DNA of 47,319 bases. Source: Escherichia phage C119. How positions within the stretch are numbered: position 1 is the first letter of the stretch; each line of letters starts with the position of its first letter. Made by a program: the position numbers and the translations under genes. The stretch lies in sequence record NC_042046.1; one strand, written 5' to 3'. The notes below the pieces were generated by a model. It was not told where the DNA came from. It worked only from the letters and a program-made list of their open reading frames with translations, and did no database searches. Below are positions 7,610-44,922 of this stretch, piece after piece.

Positions 7610-7633
7610 CCTCCCTTTGTGGAGGTTTTTTTA
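7609..7633 (+). terminator. Hairpin plus T-tract between chaperone and tape measure genes
   Basis: cctccctttgtggagg followed by T7. Confidence 0.5.
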
Positions 7634-7643
7634 TGGAGGTTAC

Positions 7644-10600
7644 ATGGCAGAATTTGCAGGTATCACACTTGGCGTTGACGTTCGCCAGGTTGACCAGGGC
7701 ACAAAGTCCCTGCAAGAATTTAAACGTGCCAATGAACAGGCGGCAGCTGGAGTTAGCGAGTTCGTTAATGCTGAGCTGGTTGCGAAGAATCAGGCTCGCG
7801 ACACTGCAAGGTATCTTTCTGAGCAGAGAAGTGCTTTTCAGTCGCTTCAGTCTGCAATTGATCCAACAGCTTCAAAATTGCGAAAACTTCAAGATGCAGC
7901 AAGTTCTCTTGATAAGGCCTTCTCCGCAGGGGTTGTTCCAGAGGCTGAGTTTTACAGGCTTGGTGAAGCATTAGAAACGCAAACAAATAGGTTAATAAGG
8001 TCTAGGTCAGCATTAACTGAGGAGGGTAGGGCGGCTATAGAAGCTGCAAAAAATAAAGAGTCCGCTGAGAGGCAAGCGCAATCATTTATTAGGTCGCTTC
8101 AAGCGCAGGCTGATGCAGCGACATTAAGTAGGGATGAGTTCTTAAAGTTAAGGGCGGCACAGCTTGGAGTTAGCGATCAGGCAGCACCAATAATAGATAG
8201 AATAACACAGGCATCAAGTAACAATACTAACGCTATAGCAAATCAAAGTAGGGCGTTTCAGGCGGCTGGGATATCGGCAGGTCAGTACAATCAGGCCTTA
8301 AGGTTCCTTCCTGTACAGATCAATGATATCACCAGCTCGATTGCTAACGGTATGCCTTTATTTATGGTGCTTACCCAGCAAATACCGCAGATTACAGATT
8401 CATTTGGTGGATTTTCAAATACATTATCAGCTGCGCAAGGTGCAGTTATAGATTATGTATCATCAATAGGAGAGCTGAGAAGTTCATTTGCTGATGTTAA
8501 GACTCTTGGTGATGAGGCTATCTTAAGGTTTGGTCGTGCTGCAACTATATTTGGTGGCGCGATAGTTGCTTCATTAGCTGTTCTTGGTAAAGCCGCTTAC
8601 GACTCATTTATTGAGGTTAGGCAACTTAATAACGCAATAATTGAAACTGGAAGGTCGTCGACTTTATCAGTTGCCGCTATCAAGGATTACGCTGATCAGC
8701 TAAATGAAACATCAAGGGCAACAAAAGGTTCTATTGGTGACATTTACCAGTCGCTAGTATCAAACGGAAGGCTTACTGTTAGTCAGATTAACTTAATCGC
8801 TAAGTCTGTTGCTAACCTTTCAGCTGTTAGTTCAAGGTCTGCGGAATCAATAATATCTGACTTTGATAAGATAGCAAAAGATCCAGTTAAGGGGCTGATA
8901 GAGTTAGATAAGCAATTTAACTTTCTTAGCGAAGGGCAGTTGACCCTAGTTAACAACCTAAAAGAAACGGAAGGGCAAACAGCAGCAGTAACAGCAGCTT
9001 TAGAAATATTTGCAGCTAGAAATGAGTCAGTTACAAAGCAGATTGAAGGCTCGCTTACACCTCTTGAATTGGCTTGGGGCGATTTCCGTAAGTTCGTTTC
9101 AGACACATGGGATGCTATAGGTGACAGGACTATAGGAGCTCTAAACCTATTTACTGACGTTATAGCTGCGACTATTGAGCGAATAAGACTGATAATTGGC
9201 ACTGGCGACAAGCTAATAAATGATTTCGTAATACGCGGAATAGAGGCGTTACAAAAGATACCAGGAGCATCTGGCGTTGGTAATGGAATAGCCGAACAAC
9301 TAAGGAAGGATAATGACGCAATAGAAAAGGAAAACATAAGGCTAGCTAAATCTATCGCTGATAGGGATGCAAGGGTTCGCAGGGGCGAGACTGGTTACTT
9401 GAGTGTTGGAGAGGGTTCAGAAAGTCAAACTGGAACTTCTGATAGAGATTCAGAATCAAGAAGAAAGGCTTTGGCCGATGAGATTAAAGCAATTGAGGAG
9501 AGAAGTAAAAAGACAAAATCTGGAGCAAAAGAAGAGAGGGATTTGACTATAAGTTATGAGTCTGGCGTTCTAGCTCTTCAGGCTCAGCTTAAGGTTCTTC
9601 AGGAGCACCGCCAGATTAGTGATGTTATCAGTAACGAACGCAAGCAGCTTTTTGCGGAGGAAGCTAAGTTTGCAATCCTTAATGAAAGGCTTGCAGACGG
9701 AACCATCACAAAGCAACAGCGATCATTACTGTTGCAGCAGGATAAAATCTTAGGACTTGCTCGCGAGAAGGCTGAGATTGGCGACCAGATTGTGCTGCAA
9801 GAAAGGGCCAATAAACTTCTTGATGACAACATCAAGAAGACTCGGCAGATTAACGCTGAAGCGGCATCAATTAGTGTTGGAGCAGGATTATCTCAGCGCG
9901 AAGCGGAAAGGCGGCGTGAGTTGGCGGCGCTAGAAGCCCAGCAAATTTCTAAAGGTGGCTCCGTAGATGACACTGACTTCCAGGCTTTACTTCAGGCTCG
10001 TCAGAATTTCTACAATCAGGAAGATGCATTACGTGGTAACTGGCTGGCTGGCGTTAAATCTGCGTTTGCTGAGACGGCTGATGAATTGGCAAACTTTAAT
10101 CAGATTGGTTCCGAGCTAGCCATGAGTGCCTTTAACGGATTGACTGACCAGATAACAAACCTGGTAACTACTGGAGAAGCTAGCTTCCGTGAGTTTACCG
10201 CATCGATTCTGAAGCAGATTGCACGCATTGCAACGCAGCTACTTTTAATTAAGGCGATTGAATCAACCATCTCCAGTTTTGGCGGTAGTGGTGGTGCAAT
10301 TGGCTCTATTGGTAGCGCATTTGGTTTCGCTTCTGGCGGTTATACTGGAAACGGTGGTAAGTACGAGCCAGCTGGCACGGTGCATAAAGGTGAATTCGTC
10401 TTTACGAAGGAGGCAACCTCAAGGATTGGCGTTGATAACCTTTATAAGTTAATGCGCGGATACGCAAATGGTGGAGTGGTTGGTGCTGGTCCTGGCTATG
10501 CGACTGGCGGGCTTGTTGGTGGAAGTAACGTTAATGTTGGTGGAGTGAATGTTACCGTTCAGACAGGTCTTGGCGGTGGTGGCGGTAATGACGCTAAACA

Positions 10601-10697
10601 GTTAGAATCTGGTATCAGGGTTATCATCGCGGAAGAGATTACTCAGTCCTTCCAGCAGGGCGGAACGGCTTACCAGTTCTTGCGAGGTTATAGTTAA
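7644..10697 (+). CDS. Tail tape measure protein
   Basis: About 1017 aa, long alpha-helical Ala/Gln/Glu-rich protein with Gly-rich C-terminal region, downstream of the chaperone pair; ATG 7644 after GGAGG (ORF track starts at an alternative TTG 7617). Confidence 0.85.
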   Translation: MAEFAGITLGVDVRQVDQGTKSLQEFKRANEQAAAGVSEFVNAELVAKNQARDTARYLSEQRSAFQSLQSAIDPTASKLRKLQDAASSLDKAFSAGVVPEAEFYRLGEALETQTNRLIRSRSALTEEGRAAIEAAKNKESAERQAQSFIRSLQAQADAATLSRDEFLKLRAAQLGVSDQAAPIIDRITQASSNNTNAIANQSRAFQAAGISAGQYNQALRFLPVQINDITSSIANGMPLFMVLTQQIPQITDSFGGFSNTLSAAQGAVIDYVSSIGELRSSFADVKTLGDEAILRFGRAATIFGGAIVASLAVLGKAAYDSFIEVRQLNNAIIETGRSSTLSVAAIKDYADQLNETSRATKGSIGDIYQSLVSNGRLTVSQINLIAKSVANLSAVSSRSAESIISDFDKIAKDPVKGLIELDKQFNFLSEGQLTLVNNLKETEGQTAAVTAALEIFAARNESVTKQIEGSLTPLELAWGDFRKFVSDTWDAIGDRTIGALNLFTDVIAATIERIRLIIGTGDKLINDFVIRGIEALQKIPGASGVGNGIAEQLRKDNDAIEKENIRLAKSIADRDARVRRGETGYLSVGEGSESQTGTSDRDSESRRKALADEIKAIEERSKKTKSGAKEERDLTISYESGVLALQAQLKVLQEHRQISDVISNERKQLFAEEAKFAILNERLADGTITKQQRSLLLQQDKILGLAREKAEIGDQIVLQERANKLLDDNIKKTRQINAEAASISVGAGLSQREAERRRELAALEAQQISKGGSVDDTDFQALLQARQNFYNQEDALRGNWLAGVKSAFAETADELANFNQIGSELAMSAFNGLTDQITNLVTTGEASFREFTASILKQIARIATQLLLIKAIESTISSFGGSGGAIGSIGSAFGFASGGYTGNGGKYEPAGTVHKGEFVFTKEATSRIGVDNLYKLMRGYANGGVVGAGPGYATGGLVGGSNVNVGGVNVTVQTGLGGGGGNDAKQLESGIRVIIAEEITQSFQQGGTAYQFLRGYS

Positions 10698-13509: not shown

Positions 13510-16500
13510 ATGGCACAAATGGTTAAACAAACAACGAGGTTATATGATATGGCCGATTTGCCAAAGATTTATGGAAGCAAGGGTGGTAGCAAGAAGCCGC
13601 ACACACCTGTAGAGCAAGAAGATAACCTGATTTCACTAAACAAGATTAAGGTGCTACTGGCTGTAGCTGATGGAGAGGTTGATTCTAGTTTCTCGCTCAA
13701 GGATGTTTACCTTGCTGACGTTCCGGTGCAAAACCAGGATAACTCATTCAACTATGAAGGTGTTACGGCAGAGTTTAGGTCTGGTACTCAGTCGCAGGAT
13801 TACATCGCAGGACTAGATGGCGCAGCTTCAGAGATTCAGGTTAGTCGTGAAATCAATAATGACACACCTTATATCATCGCAGTCAACAACAGTCAGCTAT
13901 CAGCAATTCGAGTCAAGCTGTTCTGGCCTCGACTCGTTAAGCAAGAAGAGAATGGAGATTTAAATGGCACAACATGTGAATATGCAATCGATTTATCAGT
14001 TAATGGCTCAGCGTACACTGAGTATATCAGAGGCGTGGCTAACGGTAAAACTACAACAGGTTACGACCGCAGTATCAGGGTTAACTTACCAGCCGAGTTT
14101 AGCAGCGCTCTTGTTCGTATTAGGAAGTTAACGCCAGACTCAACAAATAGCACCCTGGTTAACGGGATGCAGATCACAACCTATCAGGAAGTAATCGATG
14201 CTAAATTCCGCTACCCTCTTACGGCACTTGTTTACGTGGAGTTCAGTTCTGACCTGTTCCCTAACGGGATCCCAACTATAGCCATTAAGAAAAAGTGGAA
14301 ACTTATCCGCGTACCGACAAACTACAATCCAGAGACAAGGGCTTATAGCGGCACATGGAATGGAACTTTTAAAATGGCATGGTCTGACAACCCGGCCTGG
14401 GTTTTATATGATCTGGTGGTTAGTCAGCGCTACGGATTGGATCAGCGAGAGCTTGGTGTAGAGATTGATAAGTGGGGTCTGTATGAAGCAGCGCAATTCT
14501 GCGACCAGATGGTTCCTGATGGTAAGGGTGGAATGGAGCCGCGATATACTTGTAACGTTGTCATTCAGCAGAAAGTGGAAGCGTATCAGCTTATTCGTGA
14601 CATCTGTTCTATCTTCCGCGGTTTAACCTTCTATGATGGTGAGCAAATCGGGATTGTTGTAGACAGGCCGCGCCAGCCAAGCTATGTGTTCACTAATGAT
14701 AACGTTGTTGATGGATTGTTTAACAGGACATTCTCTAGCGACAAGAGCCTTTACACGACAGCCAACGTTCAGTTTGATGACGAGCAGAACAACTACCAGC
14801 AGGATGTCGAGCCAGTATTCGACTTAGAAGCAACACGCCGATTTGGTTACAACCCTGTAGACTTGACTGCAATTGGCTGCGTAAGGCGAAGCGAGGCTAA
14901 CCGTCGCGGGCGTTGGTTGCTGAAAACAAACCTTCGCAGTGAAACGGTAACGTTCACAACTGGCCTCGAAGGCATGATTCCTATGATTGGTGATGTAATT
15001 GCCGTTAATGACCAGGCTTGGTCAAGCAACTACACATTAAACCTTTCGGGTCGAATTGTTGAAGCTACAGGTTTGCAGGTGTTCGTGCCATTCGCTATTG
15101 ATGCTGACCCTGGCGACAGGATTTTAATCAACAAGCCAGATGGGAGCCCAGAGTACAGGACTATCGCTTCAGTATCTGCCGATAAGTTGACGCTTGAACT
15201 GAATACAGCATTCAGCTTCACACCTCAGCCGGATACGGTATTTGCAATCGACAAGCAGAATCTGGCGTTGCAGCAATACGTTGTGACAGGAATTCAAAAA
15301 GCAAACACGGACGGCGAGGATTCATTCCAGTACAGCATCACTGCGGTGCAGTATGACCCGAACAAGTATGACGAGATTGACTATGGTGTGAATATTGACG
15401 ACAGGCCAACAAGTATCGTTGACCCTGACAGGATTTTACCACCTGAAAATATCACCGTTACTAGTTACAGCAAGGTAGTTCAGGGCTTAAGCGTTGAGAC
15501 GATGGTTATTGGTTACGACAAGGTGCAGTATGCGAAAACATACAACGTACAGTGGCGCAAGAATAACGGCAACTGGATTAACGTACCTGAGACAGCTAAT
15601 ACCGAGGTTGATATTGAAGGCATTTACGCTGGCATCTACGACGTCAGGGTTCGCGCCGTAACTGACCAGAAATCAGTGTCGGCATGGTCAGATATCACGA
15701 CAGTTAGCCTGACTGGCAAGATTGGGGAACCTTCGGAGCCGCCTGTAATTACGGCTTCTGATGATGAGGTTTTCGGGATTAGGGTTAAGTGGGGCTTCCC
15801 TACTGACTCAGCTGATACCGCTTACACCGAGCTTCAGCAGGTTCCTGATAATGGTGACGGAACATATACACCGGAGAACGCGTCACTGCTTACGCTGGTT
15901 CCGTATCCTCAATACGAATATTGGCACACCACTCTACCAGCAGGTAACGTGAGGTGGTACAGGGCCAGGATTATTGACAGGATAGGTAACGTATCTCCGT
16001 GGACTGATTTTGTCAGAGGTATGGCATCCGATGATGTAAGTGCGATCATTGGTGACATCAAGGTTGATATCGAAAACTCTGATGGTTACAAGTATCTTCT
16101 CCAGAACGCCATTGATGCAAATACTGACATCCAGAATCAGGCCGAAGCTATAATCGAGAACGCCCTGGCAAATGATACTGACGTACGCGTTATGACAAAG
16201 GAGAATCTTAACAGGAAGGCGGAATATCGCCAGGCAGTAAGTTTGATTGCTGATGAAACTCAGGCCCGTGTGGACGCTCTCACGCAGCTTAAAGCGCAGA
16301 TTGATGATGAGATTGTTGGTCAGATTACGACAATTGAAACCGCACTTGCTACGGAGACCGAAGCCAGGGCTACAGCTGATACTCAATTAAGCTCAAGGCT
16401 TGGTGATAACGAGGCGGCTTTGAATCAGAAGCTTGACTCTTATGCCACGGTCGAAGGTGTTGGTGTTCAGTACGGCGTTAAGCTCGGCCTGAAGTACAAT

Positions 16501-16935
16501 GGGGTTGAGTACGGCGCTGGAATGAGCATGGAGTTAACTGGTAGTGGTGGAAATGTTCGTAGTCAGTTTATTTTTGATGCTAACAGGTTCGCAATCAGTA
16601 ACGGCATTAGTTCTGGTTCCGGTCAGTGGTCGCTACCTTTCGTTGTGGAGAATAACCAGGTGTTCATTCAGAGCGCGGTGATTCAGGATGGTTCAATTAC
16701 TAACGCGAAGATTGGTAACAGGATTCAATCAAACAACTATGTTGCTGGTAGTGCTGGTTGGGCAATTGATAAATCTGGTTTTGCTGAGTTAAGTAACGCT
16801 ACCGTTCGCGGTAGTTTGTACGCTAACAATGGTAACTTCGCGTTTAACGGAACCAACAATACTGTCGTAATAAACAATAACGGCATAACTGTTAATTTAC
16901 CAAATGGAGGTAGGGTAGTGGTTGGAGTATGGTAA
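13510..16935 (+). CDS. Host specificity / central tail fibre protein (lambda gpJ-like)
   Basis: 1141 aa, last gene of the tail-tip run, followed by a bidirectional terminator. Confidence 0.85.
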   Translation: MAQMVKQTTRLYDMADLPKIYGSKGGSKKPHTPVEQEDNLISLNKIKVLLAVADGEVDSSFSLKDVYLADVPVQNQDNSFNYEGVTAEFRSGTQSQDYIAGLDGAASEIQVSREINNDTPYIIAVNNSQLSAIRVKLFWPRLVKQEENGDLNGTTCEYAIDLSVNGSAYTEYIRGVANGKTTTGYDRSIRVNLPAEFSSALVRIRKLTPDSTNSTLVNGMQITTYQEVIDAKFRYPLTALVYVEFSSDLFPNGIPTIAIKKKWKLIRVPTNYNPETRAYSGTWNGTFKMAWSDNPAWVLYDLVVSQRYGLDQRELGVEIDKWGLYEAAQFCDQMVPDGKGGMEPRYTCNVVIQQKVEAYQLIRDICSIFRGLTFYDGEQIGIVVDRPRQPSYVFTNDNVVDGLFNRTFSSDKSLYTTANVQFDDEQNNYQQDVEPVFDLEATRRFGYNPVDLTAIGCVRRSEANRRGRWLLKTNLRSETVTFTTGLEGMIPMIGDVIAVNDQAWSSNYTLNLSGRIVEATGLQVFVPFAIDADPGDRILINKPDGSPEYRTIASVSADKLTLELNTAFSFTPQPDTVFAIDKQNLALQQYVVTGIQKANTDGEDSFQYSITAVQYDPNKYDEIDYGVNIDDRPTSIVDPDRILPPENITVTSYSKVVQGLSVETMVIGYDKVQYAKTYNVQWRKNNGNWINVPETANTEVDIEGIYAGIYDVRVRAVTDQKSVSAWSDITTVSLTGKIGEPSEPPVITASDDEVFGIRVKWGFPTDSADTAYTELQQVPDNGDGTYTPENASLLTLVPYPQYEYWHTTLPAGNVRWYRARIIDRIGNVSPWTDFVRGMASDDVSAIIGDIKVDIENSDGYKYLLQNAIDANTDIQNQAEAIIENALANDTDVRVMTKENLNRKAEYRQAVSLIADETQARVDALTQLKAQIDDEIVGQITTIETALATETEARATADTQLSSRLGDNEAALNQKLDSYATVEGVGVQYGVKLGLKYNGVEYGAGMSMELTGSGGNVRSQFIFDANRFAISNGISSGSGQWSLPFVVENNQVFIQSAVIQDGSITNAKIGNRIQSNNYVAGSAGWAIDKSGFAELSNATVRGSLYANNGNFAFNGTNNTVVINNNGITVNLPNGGRVVVGVW

Positions 16936-26665: not shown

Positions 26666-26746
26666 AATAGCACTTTTTGTTAAACATTGGTTTATATGGC
26701 TGTTATTATATCGTCAATCGAACGAACATTAAAGGCATTTGATATT
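26666..26746 (+). promoter_or_regulatory. Conserved cassette copy upstream of helicase operon
   Basis: aatagcactttttgttaaa followed by tttatatgg (-10-like) and leader tcaatcgaacgaaca resembling the cassette leader. Confidence 0.5.
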
Positions 26747-28690
26747 ATGGAAAACCGATTGAAAACAATACAAAAACAGATTGAAGAATTGGGCGAAGAT
26801 AAGATTAAAGAGATTCAAACTAAATTCACCTCTTCTAACTGTATGGTTCCGTATAGCTATCAGTGTGTTATGTACAATGAGATTGCAAAGCGCATTAGTC
26901 GCTATGAGCATCCATTTATCGCAATGGCTTCAGTTTCTGCTGGTAAGACTCTGGTTTTTGGTATGGTTGCTAAGCGTTGCTCTGAGCTTGGCTTGCCTAT
27001 GCTTGTTCTTGCTCGTCAGGCAGAGCTGGTTAGCCAGAATGCTTCTGAGATTTCTGATTACGGGGTTCCTAACTCCATTTATTGCTCTGGGCTTGGAATA
27101 AAATCATCTTATTTCCCTGTGGTGGTTGGCTCTGAGGGCACAGTAGTTGGCGGGCTTAAGAAGTCACTTGGCGATTTCTGTCCTGCGGTAGTTGCTATTG
27201 ATGAGTGTCACCATATTGATGACCAGGACATAGCGGAGGCAATTGATAACAATGAGACTGCGCAACAGGCATCAGATAAGGGGCGTAGCCAGTATACGGT
27301 CATCATCCTGACTTTAATGGAGCGCTGCCGTGCTAAGTATGGCAAGAATCTTCGTATCTTTGGACTGACTGGTTCTCCTTTCCGTGGAACTACGCCAATA
27401 GTTGTTGAAAACAAAAAGGAGTTGGGATTTTGGCGTGAGACGGTCACAAATATCGATACAAACTACCTGGTAGAGTTCGGTTCCGTGGTTCCGACAAACT
27501 TTGGTGCTACTGATGGCGTTGGTTACGACCTGTCAGAGTTTGATGCATCATCTGAAGATGGTGTTCAGGATTACACTAAAGCCCAGCTTGAAGCCATGGA
27601 TAAAAAGATTCAGGCATCTGGAACAATGACAGCGGAGATAATGAAGAAAGTATGGCTTGCCGCGAAAGACAGGAATGGAGTTCTGGTAACATGCGCAGGT
27701 GAGCGCCATTGCCACGAAGCCGCAAGTTACCTTCCTGAAGGTGAAAAGTTCTGCATTATAACTGGAAAGACTGGCGAGAAGCAGCGCAAGGAGTTGCTTG
27801 ATAAGTGCTTTAGCGGGGAGATTAAATATTGCTTTCAGGTTCAGGCGCTAACCACTGGCGTAAATGTGCCTACATGGGATACAAGCGTTATTCTGCGTAA
27901 GATCGGTAGCCTTACGCTCCTGGTTCAGCTACTTGGTCGAGGAATGCGTAAGCTTAAGAAGCTCCATGAAGATAAAGGAATGGTAAAGAATGACCATTTG
28001 GTACTGGACTTCGCAGGAACGATGGACTCTATGGCATCATTGTACTTCAATCCAATTCTTGAGCAGGCTCAATATCAGCTACGAAAGAGTAATGGCAAGG
28101 AGACTAAGCAGTGTCCAGTATGCGGAACAGAGAACAGCTTCTTTGCTCGACGTTGCATGCATATTGATGAGAATAATAATCGCTGCGAATATTTCTGGGT
28201 TAGTCGCACATGTGAAGACCAGAAAGACCCACGAACCGGAAAGGTTATCGTTAAAGGCTGTGGAGTTCAGAATGACGTTGCAGCTAAGATTTGTAGGGGT
28301 TGCGATTGCACTTTGCTTGATCCAAATCTCAACTTAAGCGGCAAACATTACCGCAAGAACGACTGGTTTGATGTTGTTGACTTTAAGGTTGGGCTAACAA
28401 AGAACCAATCAGGAATCATCTACAACTACATCCTTGATGATGGCATGGGTGGGACATTCAAAGCTCATGAGGTTTTCTTTGTAGAGTCTGGCCATCGAGT
28501 ATGTAAAACGCTCTGGTTGAACAATGGAATTAAAGGTCACGTAGTCGACATGAACGCTAAGCGATATATGGCTGCATATCGCAATGCTCGCAAGATTATG
28601 GAGTATGCGCAGTACATCCATGCCCCTAAGAGGGTAACTCACCGCAAGACCGCTAAAGGTGGCGATAATATTGCTAATAAGGAGTTCTAA
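26747..28690 (+). CDS. Superfamily 2 (DEAD/DEAH-type) helicase with C-terminal Cys-rich zinc-ribbon region
   Basis: Walker A SAGKTLVFG, DEAH-like VAIDECHHID, C-terminal CPVCGT...RRCMH...CRGCDC; ATG 26747 (ORF track begins at 26687). Confidence 0.75.
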   Translation: MENRLKTIQKQIEELGEDKIKEIQTKFTSSNCMVPYSYQCVMYNEIAKRISRYEHPFIAMASVSAGKTLVFGMVAKRCSELGLPMLVLARQAELVSQNASEISDYGVPNSIYCSGLGIKSSYFPVVVGSEGTVVGGLKKSLGDFCPAVVAIDECHHIDDQDIAEAIDNNETAQQASDKGRSQYTVIILTLMERCRAKYGKNLRIFGLTGSPFRGTTPIVVENKKELGFWRETVTNIDTNYLVEFGSVVPTNFGATDGVGYDLSEFDASSEDGVQDYTKAQLEAMDKKIQASGTMTAEIMKKVWLAAKDRNGVLVTCAGERHCHEAASYLPEGEKFCIITGKTGEKQRKELLDKCFSGEIKYCFQVQALTTGVNVPTWDTSVILRKIGSLTLLVQLLGRGMRKLKKLHEDKGMVKNDHLVLDFAGTMDSMASLYFNPILEQAQYQLRKSNGKETKQCPVCGTENSFFARRCMHIDENNNRCEYFWVSRTCEDQKDPRTGKVIVKGCGVQNDVAAKICRGCDCTLLDPNLNLSGKHYRKNDWFDVVDFKVGLTKNQSGIIYNYILDDGMGGTFKAHEVFFVESGHRVCKTLWLNNGIKGHVVDMNAKRYMAAYRNARKIMEYAQYIHAPKRVTHRKTAKGGDNIANKEF

Positions 28691-34467: not shown

Positions 34468-36057
34468 TTACCCCAGCAGCCGTGGATTGATATATACCTT
34501 GTCACCAATCAGGCAGGTATAGTTTTTATCATCAAGCATCGGGAGTAAGTGGTCTTTAATTTTAGCCATAACACCAGCCTGTGACTCGAAAGGTCGAACC
34601 TTACGCGCAGCTTCATAAAGTGAGCGCAAACCCACAACTCCTTTACTGTTCTTGCCTTGCTTGATAAGGATATCAATTAACTTGTTCATCTCAGCGTTAT
34701 CGCCAGCATGACCAGCTGCGTTAGCAGAAGATAAGTAAGTCTTGCTAAGTTCTTCAAACATCAATAAAGCCTCCTGCATCGTTTCCAGTCCAATCTCCCT
34801 GGACTTCTGCGGACTACCGCCATTTGGATTAAACCAGTTACGTATGGTGTGAAGAACGGCAGCAAGGCGAATAACCTGCTTATCCATTTTACCTAGTGCG
34901 CCACGGAGCATTGTGTGTGAATACTTGCCGCCATCCGCAAGGTGTGGCTCCATTTCCTGTCGAGCACGGTTAAGGTGCTTCATTGCTGAGTTACTAATAG
35001 TCAACTTCACATCTTGCTCACTCATAATTTCATGAACAAGACGGAAGTAATCAGCCTTCAACGCTCCGTCAATCGGCTCATATGTTGACTCGCCATTATC
35101 ATCGACGAAAACACGCTCACCAAGGAATGACTTTTCACGCACAAGCAAGAAACGTTCGGATACACCAATACCGCGAGCACCAGCATTCATGATTGCGACT
35201 ATTGTTTCATCCTGCGCAATTACAGAAATACACCCCATAGCAATAAAGCTCATGTTGTTCTCTGCGTTCGCACGCGCGATAGATACGTTACCAGCATCCC
35301 AGGCCTTAAGTACCAGTTCGCTGTTTGTTTTCTTTGTTCCATCACCATAGGTCATGCCAAGCAGTGAGTTGACGCTCGTCGCCTCATCCGAGATGACAGC
35401 GAAGCTACCCTGACGATGGTTAATGCGTGCCAGACCTTCAGGAGTAGTATCAGATACAGGGAATACGATGTCGCAAAGTTTCTCGAGCTTATCTTCCAGC
35501 TCCTCCTTCTCCTCAAACAAACCAGCCATCTCAGAAGGCGACTTCTCCTGCTTCATTTCTTTAGCCAGAGCCGACAGCTTGGCCATAATCTTTTTACGGT
35601 CACGCTTACGCAGATCGTTTAGTCGCTCAGTCTCTGCAATCATTGGAGCCAGAGACAGCGAGTTAATGGCGGATTTACCAGTTGATGGAGGCTGGCTGGT
35701 CACTACATACAGTGATGTTGGTTGTTGAGTTCCGTGATACTCAACCGTAAAGCGACCTAACATAGCTGCCGAGATGCAACCAAGGAAGTGCATATAAGCA
35801 GATGATTCAGGAAACTGAACAGAACGAGCAATGTTGCTTGATAGTTTGCCAACTACATCATAGTCGTTACCAAGCGAGATAACAGGATACTTGTCGCCAG
35901 TAGAATCAATCTCAACCGGAGCTTTCCAGAATGATGCGCTCTGGCGATAACCGTTCGCATTAATAGCAACACGTAAAGGAGGTAATCCATCCTGAGCGGC
36001 AACAGCCATTACTTGTTCAACAGTCAATTTGTCATCATTAAAATCAAACATTATCAT
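34468..36057 (-). CDS. Putative P-loop NTPase of unknown function (529 aa); full-length paralog of the ORF at 39457-40017
   Basis: Walker A-like VVTSQPPSTGKSA; N-terminus (MIMFDFNDDKLTVEQVMAVAAQDGLPPLRVAINANGYRQS) and C-terminus (VVGLRSLYEAARKVRPF...CLIGDKVYINP) are shared with the 186-aa ORF. Confidence 0.6.
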   Translation of the reverse strand: MIMFDFNDDKLTVEQVMAVAAQDGLPPLRVAINANGYRQSASFWKAPVEIDSTGDKYPVISLGNDYDVVGKLSSNIARSVQFPESSAYMHFLGCISAAMLGRFTVEYHGTQQPTSLYVVTSQPPSTGKSAINSLSLAPMIAETERLNDLRKRDRKKIMAKLSALAKEMKQEKSPSEMAGLFEEKEELEDKLEKLCDIVFPVSDTTPEGLARINHRQGSFAVISDEATSVNSLLGMTYGDGTKKTNSELVLKAWDAGNVSIARANAENNMSFIAMGCISVIAQDETIVAIMNAGARGIGVSERFLLVREKSFLGERVFVDDNGESTYEPIDGALKADYFRLVHEIMSEQDVKLTISNSAMKHLNRARQEMEPHLADGGKYSHTMLRGALGKMDKQVIRLAAVLHTIRNWFNPNGGSPQKSREIGLETMQEALLMFEELSKTYLSSANAAGHAGDNAEMNKLIDILIKQGKNSKGVVGLRSLYEAARKVRPFESQAGVMAKIKDHLLPMLDDKNYTCLIGDKVYINPRLLG

Positions 36058-41614: not shown

Positions 41615-41749
41615 ATGATATGGATTCACACGTACTACACTGGCAAGTTCAATAGCGTAATGCACAAACGAGTGTATGACAGCTATGAAGCGGCAAAGGC
41701 ACAGCAGGCAGTCCTGGGTGGCGATATTCAATCTTACAAGAAGGCTTAA
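41615..41749 (+). CDS. Hypothetical small protein (44 aa)
   Basis: ATG 41615 after GGAGA. Confidence 0.35.
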   Translation: MIWIHTYYTGKFNSVMHKRVYDSYEAAKAQQAVLGGDIQSYKKA

Positions 41750-41751
41750 TC

Positions 41752-41991
41752 ATGTTCGGACTTACTCAACCACAATTTAATGCAGTTCGCGCCCAAGCTA
41801 AGAAACTTAACGAGGCGGTGGATAAGCTGACAAGCAAGCAGAAGCAGGATAATGACATCATGAAGGCGATTATCTGTGAGTTTCATAGCCCAGTCAGTAC
41901 AATCATCGAGAAGATGAAGTTTGTTTGGGTTGCAGGCTATCTTGCTGGTCGCGTAGGTAAGCGTGAAGATGGGGAGCAGATTTATGACTAA
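41752..41991 (+). CDS. Hypothetical protein (79 aa)
   Basis: ORF-track ORF. Confidence 0.5.
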   Translation: MFGLTQPQFNAVRAQAKKLNEAVDKLTSKQKQDNDIMKAIICEFHSPVSTIIEKMKFVWVAGYLAGRVGKREDGEQIYD

Positions 41992-42178
41992 ATCACTAGG
42001 GAAAGTCAGATGTATTGTGTCTTACAATGATAAGAAGTTCAAAACTGGTAAATCTTACAGCATTTTGTCATCACCCGCATATGGTTGGGTTAAATGTGAG
42101 TCAGAAGATGGGTGTATAGAGATGGTTAAAGATGGCATTGACATTGAGTTTGGTTACTTTGAGGTATTTTATGACTGA
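41984..42178 (+). CDS. Hypothetical protein (64 aa, Cys-containing)
   Basis: ATG 41984 overlapping the upstream stop (ORF track begins at GTG 41963). Confidence 0.45.
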   Translation: MTKSLGKVRCIVSYNDKKFKTGKSYSILSSPAYGWVKCESEDGCIEMVKDGIDIEFGYFEVFYD

Positions 42179-42464
42179 GCTATCAATCTGGTTCCTGGCT
42201 GGCATGTTGACGTGGATTTATTTCGTCGTCATGGCTTGACGAAAATGTTAAAAGTGGTTAGTATTAACCACGTAGACGGCAATGACCGTAACGCGCATCG
42301 CGGAGATGCAAGCCGATAGCCGGGCTGGATAAAGATACGAGGCAAATAAAACCGCAGTTAGACATTGAGAACTTCGCGAAGCGAACCAATCAATGCAGTA
42401 AGTCGGGCTTGACATTCCGAGGATTGTGAAACCTCCCCGCATTCGGTAAGCGGGACTCATTCTA

Positions 42465-42540
42465 GTTCTGCTGGCGTAACAGGATAACGCAGAGACCTCC
42501 TAAGTCTCAGTTACTGGTTCGAGTCCAGTGCGGAACACCA
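42465..42540 (+). tRNA. tRNA-Arg (anticodon CCU, reads AGG) with encoded CCA
   Basis: Hand-folded cloverleaf: acceptor gttctgc/gcggaac (7 bp, one G-U), D-arm gcgt-aacaggata-acgc, anticodon arm gagac-ctCCTaa-gtctc (U33, A37 present), 4-nt variable loop, T-arm actgg-TTCGAGT-ccagt, discriminator A, CCA. Confidence 0.75.
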
Positions 42541-42556
42541 AACATGGAGCATCCTA

Positions 42557-42742
42557 GTGAATAACTACGAAGTCCGTTTAACTTCCCGCCTAATGGGTCG
42601 GCAATGCAAATCTTGCCAGCAATCCTACGAAGGTAGGTTCATTGCTAAAAGCCCTGAAGAAGCAGTTGCAGCCGCAAAGGCAGCATTTAAGATTGACCTG
42701 ACAGTCCACAAAGTCAGCGTTGATAAAGTATCCCTCGTTTGA
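42557..42742 (+). CDS. Hypothetical protein (61 aa, CxxC)
   Basis: GTG start with GGAG RBS; followed by a strong terminator. Confidence 0.45.
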   Translation: MNNYEVRLTSRLMGRQCKSCQQSYEGRFIAKSPEEAVAAAKAAFKIDLTVHKVSVDKVSLV

Positions 42743-42769
42743 GATTGGTCATCTCGCAATGCAGTACTT

Positions 42770-42795
42770 TGCCCTCCTTGTGAGGGCTTTTTTTC
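42770..42795 (+). terminator. Rho-independent terminator upstream of terS
   Basis: gccctccttgtgagggc followed by T7; then TACAAT -10-like and AGGAGG RBS for terS. Confidence 0.75.
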
Positions 42796-42841
42796 GTCCA
42801 TAGTCATGGTACAATGACTTTTAAAACAGGAGGAATATCAA

Positions 42842-43357
42842 ATGTCAGAAGAGAAAAAAATTCACCAGAAGATTGGTAACTTCAAGGAGCTTTACAATAA
42901 GAAGTATGGCGACATTGCCAATCTTAAGATTAACCACAGATACACTCCCGAGCAGGTATTCGACATGGCTGTAAGGTATTTCAGCTGGGCTGAAGAGCAG
43001 GCAATTAAAGCTATCGAGACAGCAAGCTTTCAGGGTGTCGTAACGGAAAACCTTGTTCACAAGCCGAGGGTATTTACGATAACTGGATTCCAGCTTTTCT
43101 GCGGCGTTGGTCATAATGCTATTAGCAAATGGCGCTCATCACCAGGATTCGATGAAGTTATGGAGTTCGTCGACTCAGTTATCTTTGAACAGAAGTACCA
43201 GTTGGGTGTTAACAACATCGTCAACCCTGGACTTATTAGCAAAGACCTTGGCATCGATAAGCCGCAAGAGGTTAACATCAACAACGCTTCTAATGCTGTA
43301 GTAAACGACGAGGAAGCAATGAAGTCTGCTCTGGCTTCTGTAATGGATAAACTATGA
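42842..43357 (+). CDS. Terminase small subunit
   Basis: 171 aa ORF immediately upstream of, and ATGA-coupled to, the large terminase gene. Confidence 0.65.
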   Translation: MSEEKKIHQKIGNFKELYNKKYGDIANLKINHRYTPEQVFDMAVRYFSWAEEQAIKAIETASFQGVVTENLVHKPRVFTITGFQLFCGVGHNAISKWRSSPGFDEVMEFVDSVIFEQKYQLGVNNIVNPGLISKDLGIDKPQEVNINNASNAVVNDEEAMKSALASVMDKL

Positions 43358-44922
43358 AGACATTGGTTTGGGAAGAAATGACGCCAGCCGAAAAGCTGGC
43401 AGTTAAAGTGCTGTCCACTCACAGCTTCGAGGCATTCCTTCGCGTGTGGTTTCAGCTAAGCCAGGGAGAGCGATACATCCCTAACTGGCATCACAAGTAC
43501 CTTTGCCGAATAATTGACGAGGTTATTAGTGGCGAGCGTAGGGATACCATCATTAACGTGGCTCCCGGGGCCGGGAAGACCGAGATTACTTCAATACACT
43601 TCCCTGTATACTCAATGCTTAAGCTAAAGAAGGTGCGAAATCTGAGCCTCTCATTCTCTGACAGTCTGGTGAAGCGCAACTCTAAGCGTGTTCGCGACCT
43701 TATAAAGTCAGCTGAGTTTCAGGAACTATGGCCCTGTAAGTTCGGCACGTGCAAGGATGACGAGATTCAGGTTCTTGACGAGAGTGGAAAGGTTAGGTTC
43801 GAAGCGATATCTAAGGCAATTGGCGGTCAGATTACCGGCGCTCGTGGCGGTTATATTACTGAAACCTATAGCGGTTGCTTGATGCTTGATGACCCAGACA
43901 AGCCAGACGATATGCTCAGCAAGGTAAGGCGAGAAGCTGTCCACGTTTTACTTAAAAATACCATTCGCTCACGTAGGGCGAGTAGCGTTAAAGGTAAAGC
44001 TACGCCGATTTTGTCCATCCAGCAAAGGCTTCATACGCAGGATTCGACGTGGTTCATGACTTCTGGTGGTATGGGTATCGACTTTGATGTATTGAAGATA
44101 CCGGCGCTGGTCACTGAAGAATATGTGAATGAACTTCCTGACTGGATTCGTGAGCAGTTCGAGAAGGACGTGCTTTCATCCGAGTACGTCGAGCGAGATG
44201 GTGTTAAGTATTACAGCTACTTCCCGCAGAAGGAATCTGCGCATGACTTGATGGCAATGTGGGACTCAGATCCGTACACGTTCCTAAGCCAGTACCAACA
44301 ATCTCCAGTAGCCTTAGGTGGAAACCTGATTAACGTAGATTGGTTCGTGAGGCTTGACGAGAACAACAGGCCGCCAGTCAAGTATGACTACCGCTTCATT
44401 ACAGCTGATACTGCCATGACTACGAAGAGTTACAGCGATTATTCTGTGTTCCAGCTTTGGGGTAGAAAGGATAACAAGATTTATCTTCTGGATATGGTTA
44501 GGGGTAAATGGGAGGCTCCAGAGCTTGAGCAAACTCTTCTGAACTTTGAGAGTAAGCACCGAGCAGCTAGTAAAACAGATGGTATCTTACGTAAGGTTAT
44601 TATCGAGAAGAAAGCATCTGGCATAGGGCTTATCCAGTCAGCAGGTCGAACGATGCGGACTCCTATTGAGCCTTTCGTTCCCGATACAGATAAGTTAACC
44701 AGGGTGATGAGCGCATTACCACAGATTAAGGCTGGTAACGTAGTTCTGCCAGACTCAGCGCCATGGCTTACATCTCTGCTAACTGAGTTCTCGGCGTTCA
44801 CTGCGGACGATTCACACCCCCATGATGACATTGTAGATACAACAACGATGGCAATAAACTGTGAATTGAACTTGAGTGACGACCCAAGAGCTAGGTTAAT
44901 GAGGCTAGCTGGAGTTAAGTAA
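43354..44922 (+). CDS. Terminase large subunit
   Basis: 522 aa; Walker A NVAPGAGKTE; C-terminal nuclease-type acidic residues; followed by the portal gene. Confidence 0.85.
   Translation: MKTLVWEEMTPAEKLAVKVLSTHSFEAFLRVWFQLSQGERYIPNWHHKYLCRIIDEVISGERRDTIINVAPGAGKTEITSIHFPVYSMLKLKKVRNLSLSFSDSLVKRNSKRVRDLIKSAEFQELWPCKFGTCKDDEIQVLDESGKVRFEAISKAIGGQITGARGGYITETYSGCLMLDDPDKPDDMLSKVRREAVHVLLKNTIRSRRASSVKGKATPILSIQQRLHTQDSTWFMTSGGMGIDFDVLKIPALVTEEYVNELPDWIREQFEKDVLSSEYVERDGVKYYSYFPQKESAHDLMAMWDSDPYTFLSQYQQSPVALGGNLINVDWFVRLDENNRPPVKYDYRFITADTAMTTKSYSDYSVFQLWGRKDNKIYLLDMVRGKWEAPELEQTLLNFESKHRAASKTDGILRKVIIEKKASGIGLIQSAGRTMRTPIEPFVPDTDKLTRVMSALPQIKAGNVVLPDSAPWLTSLLTEFSAFTADDSHPHDDIVDTTTMAINCELNLSDDPRARLMRLAGVK

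What the first reader, a model, noticed from the sequence alone, without database searches (positions are those of the whole stretch)
42179..42540. Phage-encoded tRNA-Arg(CCU) preceded by ~285 bp of structured noncoding sequence
42465-42540 folds by hand into a canonical cloverleaf with anticodon CCU (rare AGG codon), conserved U8, A14, G18G19, U33, A37, a TTCGAGT T-loop and an encoded CCA. The 285 bp upstream (42179-42464) has no credible ORF (the minus-strand ORF 42248-42460 has no RBS context) but contains several stem-forming segments (tttcgtc/gacgaaa, ttcgcgaa palindrome, cccgc...gcggg). It could be a tRNA leader or promoter, a second degenerate tRNA-like element, a small RNA, or a packaging-site region given its position ~300 bp upstream of terS.
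Basis: seen in the sequence. Interest (0 to 1): 0.45.

Follow-up and report, generated by a model that had tools for sequence, protein, structure and literature searches.

The report
Phage tRNA embedded in conserved leader
A genuine, already-annotated arginine tRNA of a T1-like coliphage sits inside a previously undescribed structured leader RNA with its own apparent promoter; the leader is conserved across the T1 phage family, and the spot just after it holds different tRNA genes in different phages.

Summary
The tRNA-Arg(CCU) at 42465-42540 is real (ARAGORN; Rfam 57.6 bits). It is already annotated and published in Rogue1/JK06-like phages, and the window is 99.7% identical to phiKP26.

AGG is this phage's commonest Arg codon: 12.3 per 1000 codons, against 2.5 in an E. 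coli slice. That fits a codon-supply role.

The 285 bp upstream is not uniform noncoding DNA. It contains, in order:
- the end of a conserved 22-aa hydrophobic micro-ORF (42171-42239; 19 synonymous vs 5 non-synonymous differences);
- a sigma-70-type box (TTGACG-17-TAGTAT, 42236-42264) found at the same place in 23 of 23 loci from more than 12 Drexlerviridae genera, including T1;
- a roughly 195-nt leader whose hairpins keep their loops while their stems covary (97-100% paired, 0/500 shuffles).

The two terminal hairpins occur once per genome. In T1, AAS23 and Tlsvirus they lie next to the next gene's RBS with no tRNA. Elsewhere the same slot holds Arg-CCU, Arg-UCU, Ser-GCU, extra Trp or Val, or tRNA remnants. 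So the tRNA is a passenger in an older leader.

No Rfam family or annotation covers the leader, and its function is unknown. The packaging-site, second-tRNA and coding readings are not supported.

The parts
42171..42239 (+). Conserved 22-aa hydrophobic micro-ORF (MTELSIWFLAGMLTWIYFVVMA). Its start overlaps the stop of the upstream gene and its TGA stop lies inside the -35 box.
   Evidence: 19 synonymous vs 5 non-synonymous codon differences among 8 relatives; 9 of 13 variable columns fall at third positions; GAGG or GGAG lies 6-7 nt upstream of the ATG.
42236..42264 (+). Sigma-70-type promoter box: -35 TTGACG (42236-42241), 17-nt spacer, -10 TAGTAT (42259-42264). The inferred transcription start is near 42271.
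   Evidence: Consensus scan gives 9/12 matches. A TTGxxx-17(18)-TAxxxT box sits at the homologous place in 22/22 loci and in T1, where it is TTGACC-18-TAGTAT with an upstream TG. The hexamers and spacing are conserved while the spacer sequence varies. The start site itself is inferred, not mapped.
42265..42350 (+). Conserved 5' domain of the leader. It holds the TAACCACGTAGAC box (42265-42277), hairpin A ACGG-CAAUGA-CCGU (42276-42289), hairpin GCAUC-GCGGA-GAUGC (42295-42309) and hairpin AGCC-GAUAGCCG-GGCU (42311-42326). A predicted enclosing stem pairs 42268-42274 with 42336-42342.
   Evidence: 87% of columns are invariant among nine Rogunavirinae, more than the tRNA at 78%. RNAalifold recovers the hairpins. 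Homologous hairpins A and B covary across genera: 100% and 97% paired, with 3/3 and 4/5 pairs compensatory. The enclosing stem is invariant, so it cannot be tested.
42351..42414 (+). Lineage-specific variable insert, including a long hairpin at about 42363-42395 (CAUUGA...UCAAUG enclosing UUCGC-GAA-GCGAA).
   Evidence: Only 3 of 64 columns are invariant. The stretch is replaced or deleted in Rogue1, e4/1c, EB49, Sf12 and Opt-79.
42415..42457 (+). Two-hairpin 3' module: hairpin 1 GAGG-AUUGUGAAA-CCUC (42419-42435) and hairpin 2 CCCGC-AUUCGGUAA-GCGGG (42436-42454).
   Evidence: 100% of cells are paired, 6 of 9 pairs show compensatory changes, 0/500 shuffles reach the observed score and slid controls collapse. 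With independent genomes added it is 99.1% paired. The covariance model finds one copy per genome: window 60 bits, T1 36 bits, ACG-M12 23 bits. In a loop-only scan of IMG/VR, all 28 true homologues form both stems and none of 44 chance hits does.
42465..42540 (+). tRNA-Arg, anticodon CCU, with encoded CCA.
   Evidence: ARAGORN; Rfam RF00005 at 57.6 bits; annotated as tRNA-Arg in Rogue1, AHP24, Sd1, Sf12 and others.
42557..42742 (+). Conserved 61-aa protein (PHROG 2919; MGR-C-x-x-C...H), the gene that the leader precedes throughout the family.
   Evidence: phrog_2919, E=7.8e-29. It is 38% identical to the AAS23 homologue, E=6e-17. A related copy hits 742 phage records by tblastn. AlphaFold2 gives pLDDT 86 with a beta-beta-alpha-beta fold, but only weak fold matches.
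42771..42795 (+). Intrinsic terminator closing the unit (GCCCUC-CUUGU-GAGGGC followed by U7). terS follows at 42842 behind its own extended -10 (TGGTACAAT, 42807-42815).
   Evidence: It is the only terminator-like site in 41700-43000. Equivalent terminators are annotated in T1 and KP36.

Best explanation
The region is one small transcription unit, conserved across Drexlerviridae: a sigma-70 promoter (42236-42264), a structured leader RNA of about 195 nt (roughly 42271-42464), tRNA-Arg(CCU) (42465-42540), a 61-aa protein (42557-42742) and an intrinsic terminator (42771-42795).

Shown:
- The tRNA is canonical.
- Its anticodon matches a strong AGG excess in this phage.
- The promoter box and the leader hairpins are conserved, and the hairpins covary, across more than 12 genera.
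- The leader exists without any tRNA in T1, AAS23 and Tlsvirus. The tRNA therefore occupies a recurrent insertion slot between the last leader hairpin and the next gene's RBS.

Inferred:
- Host RNA polymerase starts near 42271.
- RNase P cuts at the tRNA 5' end and the usual 3' trimming exposes the encoded CCA. This yields a tRNA that decodes AGG in AGG-rich late genes (tape measure, tail fibre, TerL).
- The RNase P cut also frees the leader as a separate RNA.

The terminal hairpins are equally conserved whether they abut the RBS or are cut away from it by a tRNA. I therefore think the leader acts through its own structure rather than as an RBS-proximal operator. My preferred reading, at about 45%, is a stable RNA whose invariant loops (AUUGUGAAA, AUUCSGUAA, GCGGA/GCGAUA) are recognition sites for a protein or for RNA polymerase. 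The partner and the output are unknown.
For: tRNA; annotation in relatives; published as '1 arginyl-tRNA' (PMC4070988).

Codon supply:
- AGG is 12.3 per 1000 codons and 23.8% of Arg codons in the window. The same crude ORF caller gives 2.5 per 1000 and 3.9% on 49 kb of E. coli K-12.
- The tRNAs in this slot are orthologous, with anticodon CCU or UCU.
- Codon usage tracks the anticodon. The window (CCU) has AGG 12.3 > AGA 8.7. ACG-M12 (UCU) has AGA 13.3 > AGG 8.6. T1, with no tRNA, has 5.5 and 7.4.
- No complete E. coli genome has a similar tRNA.

Promoter. No other promoter-like box or terminator lies between it and the tRNA.

Leader structure: covariation; RNAalifold. G-U pairs occur only in the + strand sense, which fits a transcript running in the gene direction.

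Single copy and fixed position.

The leader predates the tRNA:
- AAS23, L012, L017 and L018 have the hairpins about 15 nt before the homologous gene and no tRNA.
- T1 has the full leader.
- The slot holds Arg-UCU, Ser-GCU, or an extra Trp or Val.

Other points: in Webervirus the leader is about 55 nt and ends in its own terminator-like hairpin. The leader is noncoding. No Rfam family matches it. It is unannotated in the curated T1 record and absent from the TLS promoter list.
Against: - No transcript, start-site or processing data exist for any Drexlerviridae phage in the searchable literature. Transcription from this box, co-transcription and RNase P release are all inferred.
- The box matches the consensus only 9/12.
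- The window leader folds no better than shuffled sequence (z=-0.34).
- Within the window's own lineage the 5' domain is nearly invariant, so its pairs are untested there. Two singleton changes (AHP24, Opt-79) each break the outermost pair of the GCGGA hairpin.
- The link between codon usage and anticodon rests on three genomes and a crude ORF caller.
- No partner for the loops was found. There is no conserved antisense target in the phage genomes, and the linked protein has no significant fold match.
- Covariation cannot by itself separate RNA from single-stranded DNA hairpins.
Confidence: 0.6

Rival explanations
1. The leader is an ordinary 5' UTR or translational operator for the downstream 61-aa protein. 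A factor, possibly that protein itself, binds the terminal hairpins and controls ribosome access to the RBS or the stability of the mRNA.
For: In tRNA-less genera the last hairpin ends 8-11 nt before the Shine-Dalgarno of the next gene. The leader and the PHROG 2919 gene are always linked. The protein has a conserved CxxC...H motif and a small fold whose best, non-significant matches are RNA-binding ribosomal proteins.
Against: In at least six lineages a 76-90 nt tRNA separates the hairpins from the RBS, and RNase P would cut it out. The hairpins stay just as conserved there. Fold matches have E>=0.12, with none at or below 0.001. In Tlsvirus and T1 another small gene lies between the leader and the PHROG 2919 gene.
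Confidence: 0.2
2. The two adjacent hairpins are a put-like cis-acting RNA. On this reading they modify the transcribing RNA polymerase so that it reads through the terminator at 42771-42795, and the many terminators of the late region, into terS and the structural genes.
For: The layout is promoter, two abutting stem-loops with invariant loops, terminator, late genes. T1's record annotates at least 10 intrinsic terminators but one predicted promoter between terS and the tail fibre gene. The TLS re-annotation found only three sigma-70-like promoters and 21 terminators (PMC11447400). The comparison with HK022 put comes from my own knowledge, not from a test.
Against: terS has its own extended -10 promoter-like site directly after the terminator. 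The hairpins are much smaller than put. Webervirus lacks the module altogether and has a terminator-like hairpin in its place. RNase P cleavage at the tRNA would cut the link between the hairpins and the polymerase. There is no experimental support.
Confidence: 0.08
3. The conserved tract works at the DNA level, as a packaging (pac) site, a TerS or regulator binding site, or a replication element upstream of terS.
For: It lies about 380 bp upstream of terS. The 5' block is extremely conserved in sequence, which also suits protein-DNA recognition.
Against: Stems covary while pairing is kept, and wobble pairs are G-U only in the + strand sense. Double-stranded DNA recognition would not produce that pattern. 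The literature places the T1-family pac site in the UTR at the start of the early small-ORF cluster, several kb upstream of terS (PMC7718038; the TLS and T1 records open there). No direct-repeat arrays typical of TerS sites were seen.
Confidence: 0.05
4. The upstream structure is the decayed remnant of one or more older tRNA genes from a former tRNA cluster.
For: The slot does collect tRNAs and remnants: Sd1 has Trp+Arg, EB49 has Arg+Val, ESCO41 has a 26-bit partial tRNA, and SG01 has sub-threshold tmRNA-like hits. RNAalifold draws the 5' domain as a stem enclosing three hairpins, about 75 nt in all.
Against: Neither ARAGORN nor the Rfam tRNA model finds anything in 42179-42464, even at E<=10. 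The leader is conserved and under purifying selection in tRNA-less genera, unlike a decaying pseudogene. Junction lengths and loops do not match a tRNA. The extra tRNAs and remnants in relatives lie next to the tRNA after the hairpins, not within the leader.
Confidence: 0.04
5. The tract encodes a protein, either the minus-strand 70-aa ORF annotated as kp_12 in phiKP26 or one of the small + strand ORFs annotated in Rogue1 and Opt-79.
For: ORF 42248-42460 on the minus strand is open and is annotated in phiKP26. The minus strand has few stop codons in relatives.
Against: The kp_12 frame shows 7 synonymous vs 19 non-synonymous differences and no third-position excess. No frame behaves as coding. 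Two or three minus frames are open at once, which is a composition effect. Its start codon is lost in the EB49/Sf12 type, and indels are not multiples of three in several lineages. It has no Pfam or PHROG support.
Confidence: 0.02

Closest known systems
Phage-encoded tRNAs that match phage codon usage (for example the tRNA-Arg of Rogue1, JK06, AHP24 and SU57)
   Same: It is the same gene. The tRNA-Arg is annotated at the homologous position in Rogue1, AHP24, Sd1 and Sf12 and published (PMC4070988). The rare-codon rationale was proposed for the AGA-reading version in SU57 (PMC7718038).
   Different: For the tRNA itself, nothing. New here are the measured AGG excess, the CCU/UCU anticodon shift between orthologues that tracks AGG vs AGA usage, and the finding that the gene sits in a recurrent slot of an older leader.
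Small stable RNAs co-transcribed with the phage T4 tRNA cluster (species 1 and 2) and spacer-derived RNAs of bacterial tRNA operons (my own knowledge; not tested here)
   Same: A structured non-tRNA RNA shares a primary transcript with a tRNA and would be released by the tRNA-processing enzymes.
   Different: No sequence or structure relationship was tested or found (Rfam gave no hits). Here the leader exists in genomes with no tRNA at all, so it is not a by-product of tRNA processing.
HK022 put RNAs and the lambda PR'-qut-6S-tR' arrangement (my own knowledge)
   Same: A promoter-proximal RNA with two abutting stem-loops and conserved loops lies upstream of a terminator and the late genes.
   Different: The hairpins are far smaller, at 17 and 19 nt. 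terS has its own promoter-like site. Webervirus lacks the module. There is no evidence of read-through.
Curated cis-regulatory and phage RNA motifs in Rfam 15
   Same: It is the same kind of object: a short conserved RNA with covarying stems in a fixed genomic context.
   Different: No Rfam family matches the leader in the window or in 8 related loci, even at permissive E-values.

Membership tests
tRNA (Rfam RF00005) | Cloverleaf scoring above the curated threshold and called by a dedicated tRNA finder | tested here: met
   57.6 bits against a gathering score of 29, E=1.3e-11, over the full model 1-71. ARAGORN calls tRNA-Arg(cct) at 42465-42540.
tRNA (Rfam RF00005) | Seven-nt anticodon loop with U33 and a purine at 37; conserved U8, A14, G18G19, T-loop TTCRANY; 3' CCA | tested here: met
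   Read directly from the sequence and the cmscan alignment. The loop is CUCCUAA, the T-loop is TTCGAGT, and CCA is encoded.
E. coli arginine-accepting tRNA | ArgRS identity elements A20, C35 and a purine at position 73 (element list from established knowledge) | tested here: met
   The sequence shows A20 in the D-loop, C35 and A73. Actual aminoacylation cannot be tested here.
Functional phage tRNA | Expressed, processed and charged during infection | not testable with these tools
   Needs Northern blotting or tRNA-seq of infected cells.
Sigma-70 promoter | -35 and -10 hexamers with 16-18 nt spacing | tested here: met
   TTGACG-17-TAGTAT, 9/12 matches. The region as a whole has about as many such boxes as shuffles do (3 against 2.1), so this box alone is weak.
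Sigma-70 promoter | Hexamers and spacing conserved at the same position while the spacer sequence drifts | tested here: met
   22/22 loci plus T1.
Sigma-70 promoter | A mapped transcription start site | not testable with these tools
   No transcriptome for the family was found.
Conserved structured RNA element | Base pairs maintained through compensatory changes, beyond shuffle and slide controls | tested here: met
   97-100% paired, 3/3, 4/5 and 6/9 pairs compensatory, 0/500 shuffles reaching the observed score.
Conserved structured RNA element | Folding energy below that of shuffled sequence | tested here: not met
   z=-0.34; 72 of 200 shuffles fold at least as well.
Any described Rfam family (other than tRNA) | A covariance-model match to the leader | tested here: not met
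   No leader hit at E<=10 in the window or at E<=1 in 8 related loci.
HK022 put-type antiterminator RNA | Two adjacent stem-loops just downstream of a promoter and upstream of terminators | tested here: inconclusive
   The layout is compatible, but the sizes differ and no put model was available for comparison.
HK022 put-type antiterminator RNA | Confers terminator read-through on RNA polymerase in cis | not testable with these tools
   Needs transcription assays.
Headful packaging (pac) site | Position of the first packaging cut or the TerS recognition site | tested here: not met
   Literature only. The pac site of T1-like phages is placed in the UTR at the start of the small-ORF cluster (PMC7718038), and the TLS pac site was mapped by restriction analysis (PMC11447400). 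No experimental data exist for this phage.
Protein-coding gene (kp_12 of phiKP26, minus strand) | Excess of synonymous over non-synonymous change, with variation concentrated at third positions | tested here: not met
   7 synonymous vs 19 non-synonymous; variable sites 5/7/5 by codon position.
Protein-coding micro-ORF (42171-42239) | Excess of synonymous change, an RBS, and a conserved reading frame | tested here: met
   19 synonymous vs 5 non-synonymous; 9 of 13 variable columns at third positions; an SD 6-7 nt upstream in all 8 relatives.

The most novel reading that the evidence does not exclude
The promoter-proximal leader is a family-wide riboregulator of T1-type phages, not just a UTR. 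On this reading its invariant loops bind RNA polymerase or a host or phage protein, acting as a put-like antiterminator or a protein sponge/decoy. It would help set the early-to-late programme in phages that have many terminators and few recognisable promoters. The site just 3' of it would be a favoured tRNA landing pad because RNase P then gives the RNA a defined 3' end.
Probability: 0.15. Interest if true: 0.75.

Novelty: new member of a known kind. Interest (0 to 1): 0.45.

Why it matters
The tRNA itself adds nothing new beyond a clear quantitative case. AGG is the phage's top Arg codon, and an orthologous tRNA carries a CCU or UCU anticodon in step with AGG vs AGA usage.

The useful result is the leader.
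- It is a strongly covarying, single-copy RNA element with a conserved promoter box, present in more than 12 Drexlerviridae genera including the classical phage T1.
- No annotation, Rfam family or paper that I could find covers it.
- It gives a concrete, testable handle on T1-family gene regulation, which is poorly understood: few recognisable promoters, many terminators.
- It shows how phages acquire, swap and lose tRNA genes at one defined slot.
- It corrects annotations: the missing tRNA and the spurious CDS kp_12 in phiKP26, and a missed 22-aa micro-ORF.

Tried and rejected
1. HNH-endonuclease remnant. The + frame of the block reads ...INHVDGNDRNAHRGD. It has no Pfam hit at E<=1 and no coding signature.
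2. Mimicry of the 16S rRNA 3' end (AAGUCG, UAACAAGG, GUAACCG strings). Local alignment is no better than shuffles for the window (276/300) and for most leaders.
3. A leader mini-ORF (GUG in loop 1 to UAA in loop 2). It is in frame only in lineages with 9-nt loops. One-nt loop insertions put it out of frame in L027, L090 and T1.
4. A hairpin GTGGTTA-GTAT-TAACCAC over the spacer and -10 box. It is not maintained in EB49 or Opt-79, so this is promoter DNA, not RNA structure.
5. A conserved antisense target for the 5' box or the loops at phage translation-initiation regions. None is shared among the window, T1 and ACG-M12.
6. Fold of the linked 61-aa protein. The model is confident (pLDDT 86), but the best PDB matches have E>=0.12 (archaeal LX/eL20-type ribosomal proteins, PurS), so no function is assigned.
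7. Protein-alignment-driven locus search. Single-protein scans returned mostly loci already held.
8. Dispersed-repeat idea for the element before terS. It is a single-copy palindrome.
9. Transcriptome literature for Drexlerviridae. Nothing relevant was found.
10. Host origin of the tRNA. There is no match in 5,426 complete E. coli genomes.
Full report
**1. Checking the observation**

ARAGORN finds one tRNA in the window, tRNA-Arg with anticodon CCT at 42465-42540 on the + strand. The Rfam tRNA model matches full length at 57.6 bits, against a gathering score of 29, with E=1.3e-11. So are A20, C35 and A73, the E. coli ArgRS identity elements as I know them from the literature. The tRNA is real.

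**2. Which phage this is, and what was already known**

- The window is 99.7% identical to Escherichia phage phiKP26 (genus Rogunavirus, family Drexlerviridae, T1-like).
- The same tRNA-Arg is annotated in Rogue1, AHP24/AHS24/AKS96, Sd1, Sf12, Opt-79 and others.
- It is published as '1 arginyl-tRNA' (PMC4070988).
- phiKP26's own record omits it and instead annotates a minus-strand CDS, kp_12, across the upstream tract.
- No complete E. coli genome holds a similar tRNA, so it belongs to a phage lineage and is not a recent host copy.

**3. Does the tRNA make sense functionally?**

I used a crude ORF caller that found 67 ORFs and 14,103 codons in the window.

| Genome | tRNA in slot | AGG per 1000 | AGA per 1000 | AGG share of Arg |
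|---|---|---|---|---|
| Window | Arg-CCU | 12.3 | 8.7 | 23.8% |
| ACG-M12 | Arg-UCU | 8.6 | 13.3 | 17.4% |
| T1 | none | 5.5 | 7.4 | 11.1% |
| E. coli K-12, 49 kb slice | (host) | 2.5 | 3.9 | 3.9% |

- AGG is the commonest Arg codon in the window.
- The AGG-rich genes are late ones: a 1017-aa protein has 30 AGG, a 1141-aa protein has 24, and TerL has 11.
- Relatives carry an orthologous tRNA in the same place with anticodon UCU instead of CCU. The acceptor stem, T-arm and anticodon stem are shared.
- Usage of the two codons follows the anticodon, as the table shows.
- This rests on three genomes only, but it fits a codon-supply role with an anticodon shift.

**4. Anatomy of the 285 bp upstream**

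An alignment with nine relatives splits the tract into parts.

*(a) 42171-42239, a 22-aa hydrophobic micro-ORF (MTELSIWFLAGMLTWIYFVVMA).*
- Its ATG overlaps the stop of the upstream gene, and it has a GAGG Shine-Dalgarno.
- It shows 19 synonymous vs 5 non-synonymous codon differences, against 5:19 and 0:24 in the other frames. Nine of 13 variable columns fall at third positions.
- It is coding, so 'no credible ORF' is wrong for the first 61 bp of the finding.

*(b) 42236-42264, TTGACG-17-TAGTAT.* The -35 box overlaps the micro-ORF stop codon.

*(c) 42265-42350.* This block is 87% invariant among nine Rogunavirinae. That is more than the tRNA (78%) or the micro-ORF (81%).

*(d) 42351-42414.* This stretch is hypervariable and is replaced or deleted between lineages.

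*(e) 42415-42457, two abutting hairpins.* They are GAGG-AUUGUGAAA-CCUC and CCCGC-AUUCGGUAA-GCGGG, and they end 10 nt before the tRNA.

No frame of 42248-42352 on either strand behaves as coding. The kp_12 frame gives 7 synonymous vs 19 non-synonymous differences. The stop-poor minus strand is a composition effect, because two or three frames are open at once.

**5. The decisive comparison: the leader is older than the tRNA**

- The two-hairpin module is present in Pantoea phage AAS23 and three uncultivated contigs with no tRNA at all.
- There it ends about 15 nt before the GTG of a 61-aa protein. That protein is homologous (38% identity, E=6e-17) to the window ORF 42557-42742, which in the window lies just after the tRNA.
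- This protein (PHROG 2919) is a core Drexlerviridae gene. A related copy hits 742 phage records.
- I sampled 23 loci from more than 12 genera, including T1. Every one has a TTGxxx-17(18)-TAxxxT box right after the stop of the upstream conserved gene. The hexamers and spacing are conserved while the spacer drifts.
- Each box is followed by a homologous leader. It starts with TAACCACGTAGAC or AAACGCCGTGAAC. It then has hairpin A, an AACGCG string and hairpin B, with loop GCGAUA or RNGGA. In most genera a terminal hairpin with a CCGUAA loop lies just before a tRNA or before the next gene's RBS.
- The slot after that hairpin holds:
  - Arg-CCU in Rogunavirinae;
  - Arg-UCU in ESCO41, L027, T145P1 and ACG-M12;
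  - Ser-GCU in L090;
  - an extra Trp in Sd1 or an extra Val in EB49;
  - degenerate tRNA-like remnants in ESCO41, Opt-79 and SG01;
  - nothing in T1, AAS23, Tlsvirus, Warwickvirus and Webervirus.

The tRNA is therefore a passenger inserted into a pre-existing leader.

**6. Is the leader structured?**

The window leader alone folds no better than shuffles (z=-0.34). The comparative evidence is strong.

| Helix | Sequences | Cells paired | Pairs with compensatory change | Shuffles reaching score |
|---|---|---|---|---|
| Two-hairpin module (MAFFT alignment) | 8 distinct | 100% | 6 of 9 | 0/500 |
| Hairpin A, outer 3 pairs | 12 genera or lineages | 100% | 3 of 3 | 0/500 |
| Hairpin B | 7 lineages | 97% | 4 of 5 | 0/500 |
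| Two-hairpin module plus T1, ACG-M12, Tlsvirus, T145P1 (model-fitted alignment, so biased toward the structure) | 14 | 99.1% | 6 of 9 | 0/500 |

- Slid-partner controls collapse to 15-44% paired for the two-hairpin module.
- Wobble pairs are G-U in the + strand sense only. That fits a transcript in the direction of the genes.
- I scanned IMG/VR with only the two loops fixed and the stems free. All 28 true homologues form both stems, and none of 44 chance loop matches does.
- A covariance model built without T1 finds exactly one significant copy per genome, always at the homologous place. Scores are 60 bits in the window, 36 bits in T1 (E about 1e-8) and 23 bits in ACG-M12, with nothing else in about 160 kb.
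- RNAalifold on the window lineage independently recovers hairpin A (42276-42289), GCAUC-GCGGA-GAUGC (42295-42309), AGCC-GAUAGCCG-GGCU (42311-42326) and both terminal hairpins. It also draws an enclosing stem that never varies, so it cannot be tested.

**7. What is known about this element**

- Rfam 15 has no match to the leader, in the window at E<=10 or in eight related loci at E<=1.
- The recently re-curated T1 record annotates RBSs, promoters and terminators, but nothing in its 165-nt gap at 7591-7754.
- The TLS re-annotation lists three sigma-70-like promoters, and none of them is this one (PMC11447400).
- I found no transcriptome study of a Drexlerviridae phage.

**8. How it most likely works**

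Shown:
- a canonical tRNA;
- a codon-usage match;
- a conserved promoter box with no intervening terminator or second box;
- covarying hairpins;
- one strong terminator after the 61-aa gene, at 42771-42795;
- a separate extended -10 before terS.

Inferred:
- host RNA polymerase starts near 42271;
- the primary transcript is leader, tRNA and 61-aa mRNA;
- RNase P and 3' trimming release the tRNA, and in doing so detach the leader.

The terminal hairpins are equally conserved when they abut the RBS (T1, AAS23, Tlsvirus) and when a tRNA separates them from it (window, ESCO41, L027, L090, T145P1, ACG-M12). In Webervirus the leader is a self-contained RNA of about 55 nt with its own terminator-like hairpin. 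For both reasons I favour a role intrinsic to the leader RNA, such as a stable protein- or polymerase-binding RNA, at about 45%. The plain RBS-proximal operator gets about 20%, a put-like antiterminator about 8%, and a DNA site about 5%. The partner is unknown.

**9. Rivals and rejected ideas**

- *Packaging site.* The constraints are on pairing, not on duplex sequence, and the literature puts the T1-family pac site at the start of the early small-ORF cluster (PMC7718038).
- *Second tRNA.* Nothing was detected in the window.
- *Coding.* Rejected.
- *HNH remnant* and *16S mimicry*. Both rejected.
- *Loop-to-loop mini-ORF.* Out of frame in T1, L027 and L090.
- *Conserved antisense targets.* None found.
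- *Informative fold for the linked protein.* Not obtained. The model has pLDDT 86, but the best PDB matches have E>=0.12.

**10. Verdict**

The headline, a phage tRNA-Arg(CCU), is correct but already known. The upstream 'structured noncoding sequence' is real in a more specific and more interesting sense than proposed. It combines a micro-ORF end, a conserved promoter box, and a family-wide covarying leader RNA that is single-copy and undescribed, with a tRNA insertion slot just after it. I rate it a new member of a known kind (conserved structured leader/ncRNA) with unknown function, and of moderate interest.

Noticed in passing
window 41983-42178: The 64-aa gene 41984-42178 (phrog_10885, kp_11 of phiKP26) is absent in Sd1, EB49, Sf12 and Phagiculus. 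It is bounded by the same 9-nt start/stop-overlap string TATGACTRA at both ends. It looks like a cassette gained or lost by recombination between these junctions.
   Followed up: partly
window 42800-42821: A single-copy palindrome GTCAT-GGTACA-ATGAC containing an extended -10 (TGGTACAAT) sits between the terminator and terS. It may be an operator or promoter for the packaging/late operon.
   Followed up: partly
L001 (phiKP26) 1849-2061 and 2066-2141: The phiKP26 GenBank record lacks the tRNA-Arg. It annotates a minus-strand CDS, kp_12, over the leader that shows no coding signature. Rogue1, Opt-79 and Phagiculus records also place small CDSs over the leader.
   Followed up: yes
L002 (Rogue1) and L008 (e4/1c), about 1985-2030: These leaders carry a roughly 21-nt tandem duplication (GCCGGACCTT(T)CCGAGGATTG) that includes the 5' half of hairpin 1, in place of the window's variable insert.
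   Followed up: no
L068 1311-1370; L005 2133-2225; L080 655-848: Degenerate tRNA-like remnants sit in the same slot. ESCO41 has a partial tRNA (26 bits) after its tRNA-Arg. ARAGORN calls an odd 93-nt 'tRNA-???' in Opt-79. SG01 has sub-threshold tmRNA-like hits. This suggests repeated gain and decay of tRNAs there.
   Followed up: partly
L072 (T145P1) 795-900: The tRNA is flanked by ATTCAAG on the 5' side and ATCAAGG on the 3' side. The RBS-proximal string of tRNA-less leaders appears on both sides of the insert, like a short duplication at the insertion point.
   Followed up: no
L079 (BUCT705) 791-883; L078 (KP36) 791-894: In Webervirus the leader is only about 55 nt. It has hairpin A, then a terminator-like hairpin GCCCC-GCUUA-GGGGC-UUUUAUU immediately before the RBS. 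That is the architecture of an attenuator or a short sRNA.
   Followed up: partly
L092 (T1) 8396-29624: The curated T1 record lists at least 10 intrinsic terminators but only one predicted promoter between terS and the end of the tail genes. How late transcription passes these terminators is unexplained.
   Followed up: no
window 7644-10697, 13510-16935, 43354-44922: AGG codons are concentrated in long late genes: 30, 24 and 11 AGG respectively. Some genes (for example 26696-28690 and 34468-36057) use almost only CGN. Codon usage differs between modules.
   Followed up: no
L027 1162-1263; L007 1585-1704: Other lineages also encode a small single-helix hydrophobic peptide (33 and 39 aa) between the conserved upstream gene and the promoter box. 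Its stop codon again abuts the -35 hexamer.
   Followed up: no
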